56,175 bases of DNA from Actinomycetota bacterium (lineage in GTDB: Bacteria; Actinomycetota; Actinomycetes; Actinomycetales; Microbacteriaceae): positions 1 through 56,175 of the forward strand of contig WLEA01000001.1 in assembly GCA_009704535.1 (NCBI GenBank), written 5' to 3'. A model generated the notes under the pieces. It was not told where the DNA came from, did no database searches, and saw only the letters and a list, made by a program, of their open reading frames with translations. Each line of letters starts with the position of its first letter. Within the stretch, counting starts at the first letter, position 1. Below are positions 15,304 to 22,062 of this stretch, piece after piece. The translations under genes and the position numbers were made by a program.

Positions 15304-16400
15304 GCGCCCGAACCCTTGCTCCGCCGTGATGACAGCGCCTCCATCATGAACTCAACAAATGCCTCGGCGGCCTCGGGCCGCCCGAGGCCAATCGCGTTGG
15401 CCCTCATGCTCGCCAGTGCCGTTTCATCAGCGAGCAACGGGAGCACCACGTCTCGGAAACGCTCCGGCGTGAACTCCCGATCTGGCAACAGAAGAGCCGC
15501 CCCAGCAGCAAGGCTGTCTACGGCGTTTTCTTCTTGTTCCCCGTTGCCCACCGGATATGGAACAAAAACTGCGGGTATACCGACTATTTGAATCTCCGCC
15601 ACAGTCGCCGCACCAGCGCGCGAAATCACTGCGCTGGCGGATGCGAAAGCCAAATCCATTCGGTCGCAATAGGCCAGAGCGACATACCCAGGAGAAGACG
15701 GCGGCAGCGGATTCTTACTCCCCACGATATGCAGTATCTGCCAATCCAGAGCCAGTATGTCCTCCACCACAGCGGCCAGGGTCGCGTTCAGCGACCGGGC
15801 GCCCTGAGAGCCGCCGGTGACCAGTAGTGTCTTTTTCCCTGGCTTCAGCCCAAATGCGCTCCGCGCCCGGGAGGCATTGGGGGAAGACGAAGGATGGGTA
15901 ATGGTCCTCGCCATGGGCATGCCCAAGACTCTGGCGTGGGGCAACTGGGTCTGGCTGAACGTGGTCACCACAAACCGCGTGAGTCGCGAACCGAGCCTGT
16001 TCGCGAAACCCGGAACCGCATTGGCTTCGTGGATCACGAGCGGAGTCCTGGTGAGCCAGGAAGCAACATAGCTGGGCGCCGAGGCATAACCGCCAAATCC
16101 TGCAACCAGCTCGGCCCTGTGGCGCATAATCAACCAGACAACTTTGCCCACCGCGATGGCGAAACGAGGCCAGAACACCAGCGCACCAAGGCTCAGTTTT
16201 CTCGGCATGGGAAGCCGTTGGGTGGTCGCCAGCGCGAACCCGGCCGCCGGAACCAGGCGGGACTCAAGGCCCCCTCGGGTGCCAACCACCATGATTTCGG
16301 AGGGGTGACAAAGACCCTGGCGCACAACCTCATTCGCCACCGCAAGCATGGGGTTCACGTGGCCGGCGGTGCCTCCGCCCGCCAAAAGAACTCGGGTCAT
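15300..16400 (-). CDS. murG: Undecaprenyl-PP-MurNAc-peptide GlcNAc transferase MurG
   Basis: AGGGTAGH, HEANxxPG, GGSQGA, RAGAAT, EQxxNA. Confidence 0.95.
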   Translation of the reverse strand: MTRVLLAGGGTAGHVNPMLAVANEVVRQGLCHPSEIMVVGTRGGLESRLVPAAGFALATTQRLPMPRKLSLGALVFWPRFAIAVGKVVWLIMRHRAELVAGFGGYASAPSYVASWLTRTPLVIHEANAVPGFANRLGSRLTRFVVTTFSQTQLPHARVLGMPMARTITHPSSSPNASRARSAFGLKPGKKTLLVTGGSQGARSLNATLAAVVEDILALDWQILHIVGSKNPLPPSSPGYVALAYCDRMDLAFASASAVISRAGAATVAEIQIVGIPAVFVPYPVGNGEQEENAVDSLAAGAALLLPDREFTPERFRDVVLPLLADETALASMRANAIGLGRPEAAEAFVEFMMEALSSRRSKGSGA

Positions 16401-17617
16401 CGAGTGCCGGTCCTTCGTCGTTCCCGGTAGTCGCTCACTGACTCGGAGCCGGTGCGGTTGAGAGCCATCACCAACCCAATAGCGATCAACGACGAGAGCA
16501 GCGCAGAACCGCCCACTGACATGAACGGCAGCGGAACGCCAAGAACAGGCAAAAGCTCGAGCACCACCGCAATGTTGACCAGCGCCTGACCAATCAGCCA
16601 CACCATGACACCCCCCGTGACAATTCTCGCGAAGGGGTCTTGCTGTGCTCGAACCATGCGCGTCATCGCGATGGCGAGGACAACGAAGGCGACAATCACC
16701 AGTGTGGTCCCCGCAAGGCCAAGCTCCTCGCCAACAATGGCAAAAATGAAGTCGGTCTCGGCTGCTGGCAACCATGACCATTTGGCGCGAGAGTTGCCAA
16801 GTCCTACCCCGAGTAAGCCACCAGAGCCCAGGGCATAAGTCGAGTGAACGGACTGCCAACACGTTGTGAGATAGTCCGCCTCGGTGCACCCGGAGAACCA
16901 TGTCATGATGCGCGCCACACGCGAGGGACTCAAGACCGCAGCGATCCCCAGAAAGGCCCCCAAGGCGCCCATCACCGCCGCCAGGTGAGACAGGCGGACT
17001 CCGGCTAAAAATGAAACTCCCAGGGCAATCATCGTCATGATGCCCACAGTTCCCAGGTCACGGCCGGCAATCACCAATGCGAGCGCCACTCCGACTCCCA
17101 CAGCCAGGGGACTGAGAAGAACTCGGTAGTCGTGGAGACGATGAAGGCGATTCGACAGGATTGCCGCCATCCATGCGATCAGCGCAACCTTCAAAATCTC
17201 TGAGGGCTGACCACTAAATCCGGCGATGTTGATCCAATTTCGGTTACCTCCAGCGGTGATTCCCAGGGCGCTGAAGACTAGCGCCTGAAACACCAAAGCG
17301 CCCAAAAACACCGCCGGGGTAGCTCGCTTGATTTGGATGGGCCTCAGTCGAGACACGATGAGCATGAGCGGAACGCCCAACACCGCCCAGAATGCCTGCC
17401 TCAAGAAAGTGGCAAAAAAGTTGCCGTCGTTGCCGAGAGCCGAACCAACAAACGATGACGAGAGCACCATGACCAAACCAAAAGCAACCAAGAACAAGAC
17501 AGTCGCCACCATCACCACATACTCGCCCGATTCCGCGCGAAAGAGACGCCTCACACTGACGACCACGCGTGGCTTGTCAGCCGGAGAACTAGAAGGTCGA
17601 CGCACGACTGTCGTCAC
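16397..17617 (-). CDS. ftsW: SEDS peptidoglycan polymerase FtsW
   Basis: Multi-TM protein; QPSE, LPAAETDFIFAIVGEELG, GVPLPFMSxGGS; GTG start behind GAGGAAGG. Confidence 0.95.
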   Translation of the reverse strand: MTTVVRRPSSSPADKPRVVVSVRRLFRAESGEYVVMVATVLFLVAFGLVMVLSSSFVGSALGNDGNFFATFLRQAFWAVLGVPLMLIVSRLRPIQIKRATPAVFLGALVFQALVFSALGITAGGNRNWINIAGFSGQPSEILKVALIAWMAAILSNRLHRLHDYRVLLSPLAVGVGVALALVIAGRDLGTVGIMTMIALGVSFLAGVRLSHLAAVMGALGAFLGIAAVLSPSRVARIMTWFSGCTEADYLTTCWQSVHSTYALGSGGLLGVGLGNSRAKWSWLPAAETDFIFAIVGEELGLAGTTLVIVAFVVLAIAMTRMVRAQQDPFARIVTGGVMVWLIGQALVNIAVVLELLPVLGVPLPFMSVGGSALLSSLIAIGLVMALNRTGSESVSDYRERRRTGTR

Positions 17618-17744
17618 ATCGCCACCTTCCTCACGTTCAAAGTGCACCATCTAGGGCGGGTGAACCCTCCATCCACAAGTGTGAACCTATGGGGCGGATA
17701 GACCCGATAGGGCGCGCCGGCATGCCCCCAGCTGCCCCAGCAGC

Positions 17745-18737
17745 CTAGGGAAGGGTCACCACTCCCGCTATCAGCGCAGGCGAGACGTCATAGGAACGCG
17801 CAATAGCCACGGCCGCCAGGATGGTGGGCAGGTCATCGGGTATCACCCACCCGGCCTCCTCGAGCTCCTCGGTAGTCGAAATCTCGAGGGCCTGGTGCGC
17901 CCGATCCTCAAGGAAGGCCCGGTCGCAGAGAATACCCTCCACGAGGCCTAGATCGCTCATTCCCGGTGAGTCCAGTCCAATCCCAATTGCCCGGGCACCC
18001 TCGAGTACATCCGCGTCCTTCACCATCTCCTCAGTGGGTCCGACGCTGCGGCGATAGACACATGCCGTGGTCGTCGCATCAAACCGCGCTCCGCTGGGAG
18101 TCACGCCGGCATCTCCCAGGGACACCGTGAGCGCGGGTCTGCGCAGCGCCTCGGGATAGCGCTGCCACCAGCCGACGCCCGTCGACCCCGCCACAATAAT
18201 GAGTGTTGTGTAGGGCTCAGGGTCACGAAGTGCATCCAGTAGTGGGGCGCTCTCCAGCCCGACGTGCCGGGCACTACGACCATCAGCCACCAGTATCCGG
18301 GCTGCTAGATCAGCAATACGCGGCCCGTCGGTCTCCCCGACGACCAGTATCCACTGCGCTACGACGTCGTTCTTGTCTCGGACTCTCCACGCGAAATCCA
18401 CATCCGACCAGACTGGAACCCCCCCTCCCAGAAGCGCGCCCGCAACGGGGTCGTCACTGGAAACATCAGGAGAGACTATGGCGAGATCCGCAGTGTGACC
18501 AAGCGCTGCCTGCACCCTCGAGAGGACATCGCCAGAGACGTGGACTCCGGCGCCGATGACTTCGCAAATCCGCACGACATCGCTCTTGGCATCCGGTGCA
18601 ACAGCCAGAACTTCTGCGCCCAGCTCGACCAGCGTGTCAACAACGGCAAAGCCGGTGGCGTCGAGGCCAACGACTACGACCCTCACGCCAGACCAATCAC
18701 TATGCCAACTAGTCAGCGAGTCCAGCAAAGAGGCCAT
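17745..18737 (-). CDS. MurD-derived protein, predicted catalytically dead (no P-loop, no C-terminal domain)
   Basis: murD position; MurD-like N-terminus (LDSLTSWHSDW..V.V.GL..TGFAV.DTL.ELGA) and DRAFLEDR; GTNGKTT replaced by GETDGPR; 330 aa. Confidence 0.85.
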   Translation of the reverse strand: MASLLDSLTSWHSDWSGVRVVVVGLDATGFAVVDTLVELGAEVLAVAPDAKSDVVRICEVIGAGVHVSGDVLSRVQAALGHTADLAIVSPDVSSDDPVAGALLGGGVPVWSDVDFAWRVRDKNDVVAQWILVVGETDGPRIADLAARILVADGRSARHVGLESAPLLDALRDPEPYTTLIIVAGSTGVGWWQRYPEALRRPALTVSLGDAGVTPSGARFDATTTACVYRRSVGPTEEMVKDADVLEGARAIGIGLDSPGMSDLGLVEGILCDRAFLEDRAHQALEISTTEELEEAGWVIPDDLPTILAAVAIARSYDVSPALIAGVVTLP

Positions 18738-19834
18738 CAGCGGCTGAGCCACTCCAAGTAGAACACTCCTGCACCCGCAGCGGCAAACAGGCCAGCGATG
18801 AGCCAGAACCTGACGACAATGGTGACCTCAGCCCAGCCTTTGATTTCGTAGTGGTGGTGCAGAGGGGAAGAGTAAAAGACCCGTTTTCCGCCGGTTGCCT
18901 TGAAATACAGGCGTTGAATAATGACGGAGCCCGTCAAAATGACGAACAAGCCACCGACAATGGGCAGCAGGACTTCGGTTCGGGAGAACAGAGCCAGGGC
19001 TGCCACACCGCCACCAAGACTCAACGACCCGGTGTCGCCCATGAAGATTTTTGCTGGCGAGGTATTCCACCAGAGGAAACCAATGAGGCTCGCTGAAATG
19101 ATCGCCGCGACAGAGGTCAACTCCAGTGAATCGCGCACCTCATAACACTTGTAAACGTTCTCTTCATCGACCACACCGCGGAAACACGATTGGTTGAACT
19201 GCCAGAACGTGATCATGACGTAGGCGACGAAAACCAGGATGGTTGACCCACTGGCAAGCCCGTCCAGGCCATCAGTGAGATTGACCGCGTTTGACGTCCC
19301 CACAATTATCAGGCTCGCCCACACGGCAAAAGCAATAATTGCGCCTATCTGACCGAGACCGACAAAGGAAACAAGATCGGCGTTGCGGATCACGGAGATA
19401 CCCAGTGCCGCCGGTGTCTGGTTGTCGTTATCGGGAAAGGACACGGCCAGCACCGCAAACGTGACCGAAGCCAAGATTTGCCCGACGACCTTGGCTCGCG
19501 GACTGAGCCCCAAAGACTGCTGGCGGCGGACTTTAGAAAAATCGTCCAAGAAGCCGACAATTCCTAGGGTGACCATCAACCCAATGACGAGGACCGCTGA
19601 CTGAGTTACCGGTGCGCCCTCGATAAGGTGCGCCCCGAAATACCCCGCGACCACGGCGAGCAAAATAACAATGCCACCCATAGTGGGTGTGCCACGCTTC
19701 ACGAAGTGGGTTTTGGGGCCATCCTGGCGGATGAACTGTCCCCACCCCAGTTTCCCAAAGAGCCTAATGAAGAGCGGCGTGAGGAATAGCGAAAAGAAGA
19801 GCGCGATAGCGCTGCCGAGCAAAAGAATCCTCAC
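18737..19834 (-). CDS. mraY: Phospho-MurNAc-pentapeptide transferase MraY
   Basis: GTPTMGG, GFLDD, NAVNLTDGLDGL, FMGDTGS, PLHHH. Confidence 0.97.
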   Translation of the reverse strand: MRILLLGSAIALFFSLFLTPLFIRLFGKLGWGQFIRQDGPKTHFVKRGTPTMGGIVILLAVVAGYFGAHLIEGAPVTQSAVLVIGLMVTLGIVGFLDDFSKVRRQQSLGLSPRAKVVGQILASVTFAVLAVSFPDNDNQTPAALGISVIRNADLVSFVGLGQIGAIIAFAVWASLIIVGTSNAVNLTDGLDGLASGSTILVFVAYVMITFWQFNQSCFRGVVDEENVYKCYEVRDSLELTSVAAIISASLIGFLWWNTSPAKIFMGDTGSLSLGGGVAALALFSRTEVLLPIVGGLFVILTGSVIIQRLYFKATGGKRVFYSSPLHHHYEIKGWAEVTIVVRFWLIAGLFAAAGAGVFYLEWLSR

Positions 19835-20475
19835 GAGAGATCCTCCACGAGCCGCAGAGCGAGGGGAAGCAGCGACTGCCCCGTCGAACCCATCACGAGC
19901 ACCACATCCTCCGGCCGGACAAACGCACGGATGTCATCGTACGCGTCTTCAACACTCTCGCAGTGCTGCGACTCTCCATCCCAGGACCCCTCCCGTCCGA
20001 CGGAGAGAAACAGCGCTCTGGCTTCGGGGCCAACAGCAAAAACCTGGTCCACGTTGAGTCGCACCATCAACGCCCCAAATGCCCCGAGGTTGTCATAGTC
20101 GGACTCTCCGTCGAAATCTAGCGCTCCCGCGGCGACAACCACGCGTCGTTCTCTCGCAGCGAGACCCGTCACGGTTTTGAGTGATGTGGCCGCATCGCTG
20201 ACTCCGAGGGTGCCGGTGTCATCAATGACAAGCACGCCCTCCCCCACTCGATGAACATCGAGTATGTGAGGCTCCGCAGCGCGCACCACTCCCGCGACAG
20301 CCTCGCCAAGGCTTACCCCCGCGCCAACGCGAGCGCTCACTGATTCAAGCGCGCGCTCCAGGAGCCGACGTGACATGGTGGGGACTTCCCAGGCCAGCCT
20401 CTGCTCTCCTGCGACGAGTACTCCCCCAGATCGACCCCAGTCAATCCACGGCTCGTCAAGGGTGACCTCAGTCAT
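19831..20475 (-). CDS. MurF-derived C-terminal-domain protein, predicted catalytically dead
   Basis: murF position; keeps VRLNVD, EGSWDGES and DVVLV; lacks N-terminal and ATP domains; 214 aa; overlaps the murE stop and mraY start. Confidence 0.82.
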   Translation of the reverse strand: MTEVTLDEPWIDWGRSGGVLVAGEQRLAWEVPTMSRRLLERALESVSARVGAGVSLGEAVAGVVRAAEPHILDVHRVGEGVLVIDDTGTLGVSDAATSLKTVTGLAARERRVVVAAGALDFDGESDYDNLGAFGALMVRLNVDQVFAVGPEARALFLSVGREGSWDGESQHCESVEDAYDDIRAFVRPEDVVLVMGSTGQSLLPLALRLVEDLS

Positions 20476-22027
20476 GCGGTTGTTCCGGGGCATAGCCCGC
20501 TTCTCGGAGGGCAGCCCGCGCTTCATCCCGAGCTGAATAGGGAACCTTCCGGCCCGAAATATCCCGGTAGTTCTGGGATCCTGGACCGCTCCAGAGAACG
20601 CTATCGCCCTCCCCCACCAGAGAAACAGCGTGTCGAATTGCCTCACTCGGATCAGGAATCTCGAACCACACGGAGCCCTCAACCGAGCGCACACCCTCGA
20701 GCAGTCCGGCACGAATCACAGCCGGATCTTCGCGCCGAGGGTCGTCATCAGTGACGATAACCACATCGGCAAGTCGTGCTGCAGTCGCACCCATGAGAGG
20801 CCGCTTAGTGGCATCTCTATTTCCTGAGGTGCCACACACCATGACCAGCTTCCCCGTCGTGCGTGAGCGAAGAGTTTCCAGCGTGGCCCGGTATGCGTCT
20901 TCACTACGACCTGCATCAACAAACACTTGAGGGCCAGTCGGTCCCGACACTCGCTCAACCCGACCCGGAACGAACACGGGAATACCCGCTGTGCCAGGGC
21001 CCATTGCCGTGGCCATGTCGGCGGGTGGCACCCCCTGAAGAATGAGCATCACCGCGGCGAGAGCCGCGTTGGAGACCATGTGTTCTCCCATGATGGGGGC
21101 CGAGAATTCGATGGCCCAAGCCTCGGGCCCGCTCACCGAGAACATGGTGGTGTCACCCGAGATTCCGGTAATCGCGTAGCGCCAATGCGGTACCTCCTCC
21201 ACGCCCTCCGACCCGGCCCGGCCGAGTGTCCAGAACGGGATTGTGGTCTGGCGGGCGAGGGCCAGCCCCCAGGATGTATCCACACAGATGACGGCCTTGT
21301 GAGAGCGCTCCGGTGTAAACAGGGCGGCCTTGGCCGCCAGGTAACGGTCCATATTGCCGAAGTCTTCAAAATGGTCGTGGCTCAAATTGGTAAACCCGGC
21401 AACATCGACCATCACACGATCGAGACGGTTTTTTTCCAGAGCCTGCGCACTGACCTCAATGGCAAGCCCACTGACGCCTTGTTCTTTGGCCAGTGCCAAC
21501 ATGGCGTGAATGTCCGGGGCCTCAGGGGTCGTCAGGGTGCTCGTGTAGGGAACGCCCGCCACAACGCGCTCAGCAGTAGTGGATAGCGCCGTCGTCCAGC
21601 CAAGGCCCCTCATGAGCGCGTCCAAGAGAAACGCCGTGGAGGTTTTCCCGTTGGTCCCGGTCACTGCAGCGATCGCCATAGAGCCGACATCGTCGGTGCC
21701 ATAAATCTCCGCAGCGATTGCTCCTAAGTGGCCCCTGGGGTCCTCGAGCACCAGTGTCGGTGTCATCTCCGGCAGCAGGCTGGCGCCAGCAGTGTCAGTA
21801 AGAACCGCGGTGGCCCCGGCGGCCGCTGCCTCTGGCCAAAATTCGATTCCGTGGCGGTTGGCACCCGGAAGTGCCGCGAAGAGATCCCCGGGCTGAACGA
21901 GACCCGTGTGGAGGGCAACACCCGTTACCAGGACATCGGGGCCCGAGTGGAGAGCCTTCACCGTGCTGGCTAACTGACGTGTCGAGAGTGGCGTGGGTCG
22001 CTGCGGACGAGGAATCTCAGCCATCAT
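20468..22027 (-). CDS. murE: MurE-family Mur ligase with divergent amino-acid-binding motifs
   Basis: PGDLF, VTGTNGKT, TTPEA, NLSHDH, GxRDxxKR, DDDPR. Confidence 0.9.
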   Translation of the reverse strand: MMAEIPRPQRPTPLSTRQLASTVKALHSGPDVLVTGVALHTGLVQPGDLFAALPGANRHGIEFWPEAAAAGATAVLTDTAGASLLPEMTPTLVLEDPRGHLGAIAAEIYGTDDVGSMAIAAVTGTNGKTSTAFLLDALMRGLGWTTALSTTAERVVAGVPYTSTLTTPEAPDIHAMLALAKEQGVSGLAIEVSAQALEKNRLDRVMVDVAGFTNLSHDHFEDFGNMDRYLAAKAALFTPERSHKAVICVDTSWGLALARQTTIPFWTLGRAGSEGVEEVPHWRYAITGISGDTTMFSVSGPEAWAIEFSAPIMGEHMVSNAALAAVMLILQGVPPADMATAMGPGTAGIPVFVPGRVERVSGPTGPQVFVDAGRSEDAYRATLETLRSRTTGKLVMVCGTSGNRDATKRPLMGATAARLADVVIVTDDDPRREDPAVIRAGLLEGVRSVEGSVWFEIPDPSEAIRHAVSLVGEGDSVLWSGPGSQNYRDISGRKVPYSARDEARAALREAGYAPEQPHD

Positions 22028-22062
22028 CGCCCTCTCTCTTGTCACCGACCGGCCGGGTGTCC

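What the first reader, a model, noticed from the sequence alone, without database searches (positions are those of the whole stretch)
17745..18737. MurD-position gene encodes a P-loop-less, C-terminally truncated pseudo-enzyme
Seen: 330-aa open ORF. TGTNGKTT is replaced by VGETDGPR, GNIG by GLES and ELSS by VAGS; the N..xDHLDxH segment is gone; the H...N motif reads DDLPT; the protein stops (GVVTLP*) where the D-Glu-binding domain should begin. Segments such as LDSLTSWHSDW, AWRVRDK, LDALRDP, ADVLEGARAIG and DRAFLEDR are well kept, and the start overlaps the mraY stop (TGATG). Selective loss of catalytic residues points to a retained non-catalytic role rather than random decay (inference).
Basis: partly seen in the sequence, partly recalled or inferred. 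Interest (0 to 1): 0.8.

Follow-up and report, generated by a model that had tools for sequence, protein, structure and literature searches.

The report
Dead MurD kept after enzyme swap
This bacterium's usual gene for the cell-wall enzyme MurD has lost its active-site residues and last domain, likely because an enzyme pair (MurD2 plus MurL) encoded elsewhere took over the reaction, yet selection still preserves the remnant here and in several other actinobacterial lineages, which points to a second, likely protein-binding job of MurD.

Summary
Confirmed, on the minus strand (18737→17745). The 330-aa protein in the murD slot of a Microbacteriaceae dcw cluster is predicted to fold as MurD domains 1-2 (Z 30.6), ends at the domain 2/3 hinge and lacks the ATP-, Mg- and substrate-binding residues. 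The genome carries an intact second ligase with all four MurD2 (L-Glu) signature residues behind a MurL epimerase homologue in the murI slot; no murI was found. Of 301 family genomes, domain 3 was not found in 18 of 20 murL carriers versus 3 of 281 others (two at contig ends, one incomplete). The remnant is under purifying selection (dN/dS 0.115; MurE 0.100), occurs in 22 of 24 congeners and arose more than once; 48 divergent clusters keep a near-invariant patch (242-285). Many other murL lineages delete murD outright, so it is no mere operon spacer. Best reading: a pseudoenzyme exposing a second, non-catalytic, probably protein-binding role of MurD. Partner and expression are untested. Not found in my literature searches; this scan noted the same phenomenon twice on other genomes.

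The parts
17745..18737 (-). murD remnant, 330 aa: MurD domains 1-2 only, catalytic residues lost
   Evidence: (TIGR01087 41 bits, cut-off 212)
18318..18341 (-). decayed P-loop, codons 133-140 (VGETDGPR)
17883..18014 (-). near-invariant non-catalytic patch, codons 242-285 (A242 V244 G247 R249 A250 P258 G264 V266 D272 R273 F275 R279 A283 E285); candidate second functional site
   Evidence: 47-48 of 48 divergent dead clusters; lowest amino-acid change along the gene in 241-270; dN/dS 0.067 for 221-330
17678..17726 (-). likely relic of an internal ftsW promoter that in intact genes lies inside domain-3 coding DNA; here a degenerate GGCAT-N38-CACACT
   Evidence: GACAC-N~38-[ACG]A[CG]ACT follows the remnant's stop in 16 of 32 genomes and lies 227-290 nt before the stop in 7 of 14 intact murD genes. 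The pattern was chosen after viewing the sequences; the window's copy has two mismatches in the GACAC half and was placed by eye.
18737..19834 (-). mraY, intact; its stop overlaps the remnant's start
19831..20475 (-). murF remnant, 214 aa, essentially domain 3 only; a second, independent relic in the same cluster
16397..17650 (-). ftsW, intact, about 95 nt downstream of the remnant (start codon uncertain)

Best explanation
The gene encodes MurD domains 1-2 without the active-site residues or domain 3, is kept under purifying selection, and likely survives because MurD in these actinobacteria has a second, non-catalytic job, most likely binding a partner protein of the peptidoglycan-synthesis or division machinery through the conserved 242-285 patch. 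Shown by sequence: an intact MurD2-type ligase and a MurL homologue sit in the murI slot (G000:C118) and no murI was found. Inferred from the published pathway: L-Glu is ligated by MurD2 and epimerised by MurL, which frees canonical MurD from catalysis. Shown: the catalytic motifs decay, and in most family carriers domain 3 is deleted up to the hinge; full-length dead forms exist as apparent intermediates. Inferred: what selection still holds is a binding surface. Untested: expression, the partner (MurG, MurC, MurE or DivIVA are guesses) and essentiality. Odds by step: ligase-dead and replaced 0.95; kept for a protein-level function 0.85; that function is partner binding 0.6.
For: Replacement: C118:1153-2490 scores 279 bits on TIGR01087, over the cut-off. 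The ORF before it matches MurL NF041275 at E 1.8e-94. Against E. coli MurD it has Glu, Arg, Pro and Phe at 182, 348, 414 and 416, the four MurD2 positions named in PMC8788868; 17 of 18 genus loci show all four and the 18th is cut short. No murI or D-amino-acid aminotransferase over cut-off in the genome. murI in 0 of 25 murL genomes and 11 of 13 others, and just upstream of rph-rdgB in 11 of 11. Coupling. Selection: pooled dN/dS 0.115 (bootstrap 0.095-0.132) over six disjoint pairs, against MurE 0.100 and MurG 0.090; four-fold sites diverge evenly along the gene (0.42-0.55), so the constraint is on the protein. Fold: pLDDT 95, top match MurD. Convergence: one origin is rejected for dead forms (p-AU 5e-41) and truncated forms (3e-8) across the class, and on the neighbour-gene tree within the family. 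Patch. Precedent: Mur ligases bind each other independently of ATP (PMC10214165, passages), bind division proteins (PMC3605390, passages), and MurD residues 53-103 bind MigC (PMC12208494, passages).
Against: No partner, expression or phenotype was shown. The invariant residues could be structural rather than a surface; I had no model coordinates to check exposure. Outside the family most murL genomes lack the gene: 14 of 14 in the phylum draw and 15 of 27 in the order and class draws, against 6 of 27 keeping a dead copy. In family f113, G1169 has a patch-bearing intact MurD while G1126 and G1111 have lost the gene, so the role is not universal. 3 of 38 family copies are broken, one (G314) in a single-contig genome whose other dcw genes are whole. 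Within the family the MurD tree does not exclude a single origin (p-AU 0.11), and with catalytic columns left in, 19 of 20 dead forms grouped together. One pair (G155/G068) gave dN/dS 0.52, with all its dcw genes at 0.27-0.51. M. tuberculosis Mur ligases did not bind one another in PMC3605390.
Confidence: 0.6

Rival explanations
1. The remnant is a ligand-binding regulator that senses a UDP-MurNAc-peptide or another phosphorylated metabolite and tunes precursor flux.
For: The Rossmann-type domain 1 is always kept, with G24 and G29 in 45 of 48 clusters, and four near-invariant arginines (249, 273, 279, 314) could bind phosphates.
Against: Residues of the UDP-MurNAc site (roles recalled from MurD structures) are lost: the SPG glycine in 9 of 48, N161 in 0 of 48, K215 in 0 of 48. 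Domain 1 is the least constrained part (dN/dS 0.173).
Confidence: 0.13
2. The protein has no function. It persists as an operon placeholder (coupling, polarity) and is constrained only to stay folded and harmless.
For: It is start-stop coupled to mraY. Many invariant residues are Gly, Pro or possible salt bridges. 3 of 38 family copies are broken.
Against: Other murL lineages lose the gene with the operon intact. ftsW lies about 95 nt away with a likely promoter of its own (PMC3781837 passages report an ftsW-specific WhiA site in Streptomyces). Nearly all domain-3 DNA was removed while 990 bp stayed in 1.3-1.8 Mb genomes. Truncation ends cluster 15-32 residues after R314 in 47 of 48 clusters. 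dN/dS is close to that of MurE.
Confidence: 0.12
3. It is half of a split or re-purposed enzyme: domains 1-2 pair in trans with the MurF domain-3 remnant or another domain and carry out a residual or new reaction.
For: The MurD remnant (domains 1-2) and MurF remnant (domain 3) are complementary in architecture and flank mraY.
Against: No P-loop lysine or Mg-binding Glu/His. The two relics assort independently: dead MurD with intact MurF in g50, g73, g62, g22 and g102; dead MurD with no dcw murF in G942, G966 and G1287; a MurF domain-3 scrap without murD in G1323. The MurF remnant has lost its own catalytic motifs.
Confidence: 0.06
4. It is a young pseudogene in neutral decay, or an assembly artefact.
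For: Three broken copies among 38; the source genome is a 126-contig assembly.
Against: Open frame across congeners down to 35% identity, dN/dS about 0.1, and an independent contig across the gene.
Confidence: 0.03

Closest known systems
[quoted passage not shown]
   Same: Orthologous slot between mraY and ftsW; 40% identity to intact family MurD; predicted fold of domains 1-2 (Z 30.6, rmsd 2.2 A over 288 residues).
   Different: No P-loop, no Mg-binding Glu/His, no carbamylated-Lys equivalent, no domain 3; 41 bits against a cut-off of 212.
MurD2/MurL alternative D-Glu route (Xanthomonas oryzae, Micromonospora, Salinispora; PMC8788868, PMC5808125)
   Same: The genome has adjacent murL-murD2 with the MurD2 signature residues, and no murI was found.
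   Different: What I read of these reviews does not list Microbacteriaceae and says nothing on the fate of canonical murD. Here it is kept as a dead two-domain protein, whereas many other murL lineages delete it.
Pseudoenzymes and non-catalytic Mur ligase interactions (MurE-MurF with MurC/MurD, PMC10214165; MigC-MurD, PMC12208494; Mur ligases with FtsZ/FtsW/Wag31, PMC3605390)
   Same: An enzyme fold proposed to serve as a binding platform, independent of ATP.
   Different: Those are interactions of active enzymes. I found no paper on a naturally dead, selected MurD, and no partner is known here.

Membership tests
Canonical MurD | MurD domain 1-2 fold and dcw position | tested here: met
Canonical MurD | P-loop G(T/S)NGK(S/T)T | tested here: not met
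   VGETDGPR
Canonical MurD | GNIG Asn, ELSS Glu, DH His and carbamylated Lys (E. coli 138, 157, 183, 198; roles recalled) | tested here: not met
   L161, V182, deleted, S215
Canonical MurD | C-terminal Glu-binding domain | tested here: not met
   model ends at E. coli residue 297; no PF02875 hit; no canonical domain 3 elsewhere in the genome at E<=1e-25
Canonical MurD | TIGR01087 score at or above the cut-off | tested here: not met
   41.2 versus 211.95
Canonical MurD | ATP-dependent D-Glu ligase activity | not testable with these tools
   needs an assay
MurD2/MurL route (genome level) | MurL homologue | tested here: inconclusive
   NF041275 E 1.8e-94 but 317 bits, below the 700 cut-off of a Xanthomonadales model; gene cut by the contig start; no Actinomycetota hit or 117 reached the cut-off
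MurD2/MurL route (genome level) | Adjacent intact MurD-type ligase with Glu/Arg/Pro/Phe at E. coli 182/348/414/416 | tested here: met
   in 10 loci of other genera the last position is Tyr
MurD2/MurL route (genome level) | No glutamate racemase or D-amino-acid aminotransferase | tested here: met
   only weak hits, 24 and 34 bits, in a 93% complete genome; murI in 0 of 25 murL genomes
MurD2/MurL route (genome level) | L-Glu ligation and ATP-dependent epimerisation | not testable with these tools
   needs an assay
Pseudoenzyme | Enzyme homologue lacking catalytic residues but predicted to fold | tested here: met
Pseudoenzyme | Maintained by protein-level selection | tested here: met
Pseudoenzyme | Expressed | tested here: inconclusive
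   no RNA holder listed
Pseudoenzyme | Demonstrated non-catalytic function or partner | not tested

The most novel reading that the evidence does not exclude
MurD of a large part of the Actinomycetia is a two-job protein: besides ligating D-Glu it carries a lineage-specific surface (the 242-285 patch) that an unknown component of cell-wall synthesis or division depends on. Replacement of the chemistry by MurD2/MurL has separated the two jobs repeatedly, leaving a widespread, undescribed family of two-domain MurD pseudoenzymes that are natural separation-of-function alleles. MurF domain 3 does the same independently.
Probability: 0.5. Interest if true: 0.8.

Novelty: new variant of a known kind. 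Interest (0 to 1): 0.66.

Why it matters
Whether Mur ligases act as structural parts of a cytoplasmic cell-wall complex is a long-standing question that is hard to test, because catalysis is essential. These genomes separate the two roles: catalysis has likely moved to MurD2/MurL and only the non-catalytic part is left, with the residues that matter marked by conservation. A knockout and a pull-down would test the scaffold idea directly. The result also extends the likely range of the MurD2/MurL route to Microbacteriaceae and flags database entries that name this protein a D-glutamate ligase.

Tried and rejected
Fusion search with longer proteins: none at E<=1e-20 (a weak test). Looking for MraY, MurE, MurF, MurG, MurC, FtsW, FtsZ, FtsQ, SepF or DivIVA features that separate lineages keeping from those deleting murD: nothing convincing, and several rows were mis-extracted. 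Link to Fem-type bridge enzymes: no PF02388 match in the genome. 'Retention only in Microbacteriaceae', my reading, was rejected. MurF domain 3 as obligatory partner: rejected. DNA-level element inside the remnant: four-fold sites show no dip. Expression: no RNA holder listed; the three runs laid are contigs that may be DNA. PDB sequence search with the remnant found no Mur ligase, and none for MurL. ESM Atlas gave only unnamed or Mur-ligase clusters. The sigma-70 scan found nothing useful. The independent-pairs output compared one label with itself and gives only the number of pairs (4 on starred branches), not a test. Literature: searches listed no paper on a dead or truncated natural MurD; subscription papers, including the primary MurD2/MurL papers, are not in the library.

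Full report
Observation. The ORF lies on the minus strand, 18737 to 17745, and encodes 330 aa. It sits between mraY and ftsW in a dcw cluster and its start overlaps the mraY stop. It scores 41 bits on TIGR01087 against a cut-off of 212. AlphaFold2 gives pLDDT 95. The best structural match is MurD (Foldseek E 6e-15; Z 30.6, rmsd 2.2 A), and model residues 8-330 cover E. coli MurD 1-297, so the chain ends at the hinge before domain 3. The organism is a Microbacteriaceae member: the closest named loci are Microbacteriaceae or Actinomycetota MAGs, and DivIVA homologues at 68-69% identity are labelled Pontimonas sp.. The genus name is an inference.

Not an artefact. The same short form matched in 22 of 24 other genomes of the genus, the two misses being 63% and 73% complete. 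All 23 genus loci aligned, the window included, stop at about the same place and lack the P-loop, while 7 of 7 loci from other families are 492-529 aa with GTNGKTT. The 120 best database homologues are 244-347 aa. An independent contig covers 17375-19141 with indels only in the intergenic part.

Why catalysis is dispensable. The genome holds a second, complete MurD-type gene at G000:C118:1153-2490 (279 bits), directly after an ORF matching the epimerase MurL (E 1.8e-94; 317 bits, below that model's cut-off and cut by the contig start) and directly before rph and rdgB. In 11 of 11 relatives with murI, murI occupies that position. The review PMC8788868 (parts 1-2 of 3 read) describes MurD2 adding L-Glu and MurL epimerising it, and names four positions that distinguish MurD2 from E. 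coli MurD. Counting along the E. coli alignment, the C118 protein has all four: Glu182, Arg348, Pro414 and Phe416. So do 17 of 18 genus loci, the other being cut short; 10 loci of other genera have Glu, Arg, Pro and Tyr. No murI or D-amino-acid aminotransferase reaches its cut-off in this 93% complete genome. That the pair is active is inferred, not assayed.

Coupling across genomes. In an even draw of 301 family genomes, 20 have murL. The canonical MurD domain 3 was not found in 21: 18 of the 20 murL genomes and 3 of 281 others. Of those three, G080 has an intact-type murD cut by a contig end, G326 hits a contig end, and G206 (87% complete) has no match at all. The two murL genomes that keep domain 3 (G085, G304) have damaged catalytic motifs. 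In a chosen set, 15 of 15 murL genomes had a degenerate dcw murD and 13 of 13 others an intact one; murI was found in 0 of 25 and 11 of 13. Within the genus murL was found in 24 of 26 genomes, the misses being 56% and 79% complete.

Selection is on the protein. Pooled over six disjoint pairs, dN/dS is 0.115 (bootstrap 0.095-0.132), against MurE 0.100, MurG 0.090, MurC 0.067, FtsW 0.061 and MraY 0.021. By region it is 0.173 (1-120), 0.115 (121-220) and 0.067 (221-330). Of 14 single pairs, 13 gave 0.04-0.19, several with saturated dS, and one gave 0.52 with all its neighbours also raised. Four-fold sites diverge evenly along the gene (0.42-0.55; whole gene 0.46, intact neighbours 0.43-0.48), and amino-acid change is lowest at 241-270. 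Against this: 3 of 38 family copies are broken (G003, G005, G314); G005 has other broken dcw genes, G314 does not.

Repeated origin. On a tree of neighbouring dcw proteins the murL lineages are scattered (one clade rejected, p-AU 1e-52; at least 4 changes on starred branches), and G320 is sister to G045, which has murI and an intact MurD. The MurD tree is less clear inside the family: with catalytic columns it groups 19 of 20 dead forms; without them it needs 5 changes but does not reject one origin (p 0.11). Outside the family, 14 of 14 murL genomes from a phylum draw have no dcw murD (13 deleted, 1 replaced in place). I then took 28 of the 32 further murL genomes from order and class draws; 27 had mraY. 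Two (family f23) have a dead MurD cut at the same hinge (327 and 345 aa), four (f12) a full-length dead MurD, five an intact one, twelve none or a scrap, three have murL following mraY after another gene, and one is unresolved. A MurD tree across the class rejects one origin for dead (p 5e-41) and for truncated forms (3e-8).

What is kept. A profile search of 50%-identity representatives gave, among the best 150 hits, 50 that cover domains 1-2, lack the P-loop and DH motifs and end soon after. I dropped two that looked like fragments of ordinary MurD. The other 48 are 295-365 aa and end a median of 21 residues after R314. They have no genomic context, so their link to murL is untested, and the profile favours this form. 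G40, V244, G247, P258, G264, D272, R273 and R314 are present in 48 of 48; A242, R249, A250, V266, F275, R279, A283 and E285 in 47. The P-loop Lys is present in 3, the GNIG Asn in 0, the DH His in 1, K215 in 0 and the SPG Gly in 9. The patch also exists in intact MurD of these lineages but is largely missing from the intact MurD of G1172 and G1177; 6 of the 7 other f132 genomes examined showed no domain 1-2 murD near mraY and one was unresolved. Family f113 is an exception: G1169 has the patch, while G1126 and G1111 lack the gene.

The deletion spared a promoter-like element. A GACAC-N~38-[ACG]A[CG]ACT pattern, chosen after viewing the sequences, follows the remnant's stop in 16 of 32 genomes (0.04 expected from shuffles) and lies 227-290 nt inside the 3' end of 7 of 14 intact murD genes. 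PMC3781837 (passages) reports GACAC as the WhiA site and a WhiA peak 269 bp before ftsW in Streptomyces venezuelae. So domain-3 DNA appears to have been removed down to an ftsW promoter while 990 bp of domains 1-2 stayed, which argues against a spacer role.

Mechanism. Shown: loss of catalytic residues and domain 3, an intact MurD2-type/MurL pair, protein-level selection, more than one origin, and a near-invariant patch away from the lost motifs. Inferred: MurD2/MurL does the chemistry, and the patch is a binding surface for a cell-wall or division protein (0.6). Rivals are a ligand sensor (0.13), a harmless placeholder (0.12), a split or new enzyme with the MurF remnant (0.06) and neutral decay (0.03). 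Expression is untested.

Prior knowledge. The MurD2/MurL route is known (PMC8788868; PMC5808125, passages). The Pontimonas salivibrio genome paper (PMC6106888; passages and supplementary tables) calls the peptidoglycan genes mostly typical, assigns MurD to a low-vertical-index gene next to RNase PH, and lists the genes in the murD, murF and murL positions as 'putative orf'; I infer their identity from locus-tag order only. Seven searches listed no paper on a retained dead MurD; subscription papers were not searchable. This scan's notes report the same phenomenon in two other genomes and a mirror case (domain 3 only) in Bacteroidales; they are unchecked AI notes, seen after I had recorded my reading, and are not counted as support. 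Verdict: a real, convergent pseudoenzyme variant of MurD whose second function is well indicated but not identified. Interest 0.66.

Noticed in passing
window 19831-20475 (-): The dcw murF is also a relic: domain 3 only, catalytic motifs lost, an R..G..EGSWxGES motif kept, dN/dS 0.138. It tracks a second murF (found in 17 of 38 genomes) and not murL. Its four-fold sites diverge less than its neighbours' (0.36 versus 0.43-0.48), hinting at a DNA element before mraY.
   Followed up: partly
G000:C81:1-3140 (L009): Hydrolase, N-terminally hydrophobic MurF-like ligase (182 bits, under cut-off) and Ddl-like gene in one cluster; the likely replacement for dcw murF. A further ddl-like gene lies at C83:20538-21428.
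   Followed up: partly
window 17678-17726 (-): Degenerate WhiA-type promoter pattern before ftsW, apparently a leftover of murD domain-3 coding DNA.
   Followed up: partly
window 20468-22045 (-): MurE of this genus reads DAGRS and DDDPR where most other family members read DFGHSP and lack that DDPR motif; it may reflect a different third amino acid. Not tested.
   Followed up: no
G000:C2:8768-12471: A Mur-ligase-like gene and a glutamine-amidotransferase-like gene (MurT/GatD-like by my reading, not scanned) face two alanine-racemase-like genes.
   Followed up: no
L304:4499-4786 (G1323), L250 (G464), L305 (G1104), L297 (G1177): Other outcomes in murL genomes: a MurF domain-3 scrap without murD; murL-murD2 placed inside the dcw cluster; a transposase-like gene between mraY and an intact murD.
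   Followed up: partly
L236 (Galbitalea soli): Cultured strain with a full-length MurD whose P-loop, DH and DSKAT motifs are damaged and with murL: a candidate intermediate stage.
   Followed up: partly
G052, G058: Intact MurD, but neither murL nor murI was found; their D-Glu source is unexplained.
   Followed up: no
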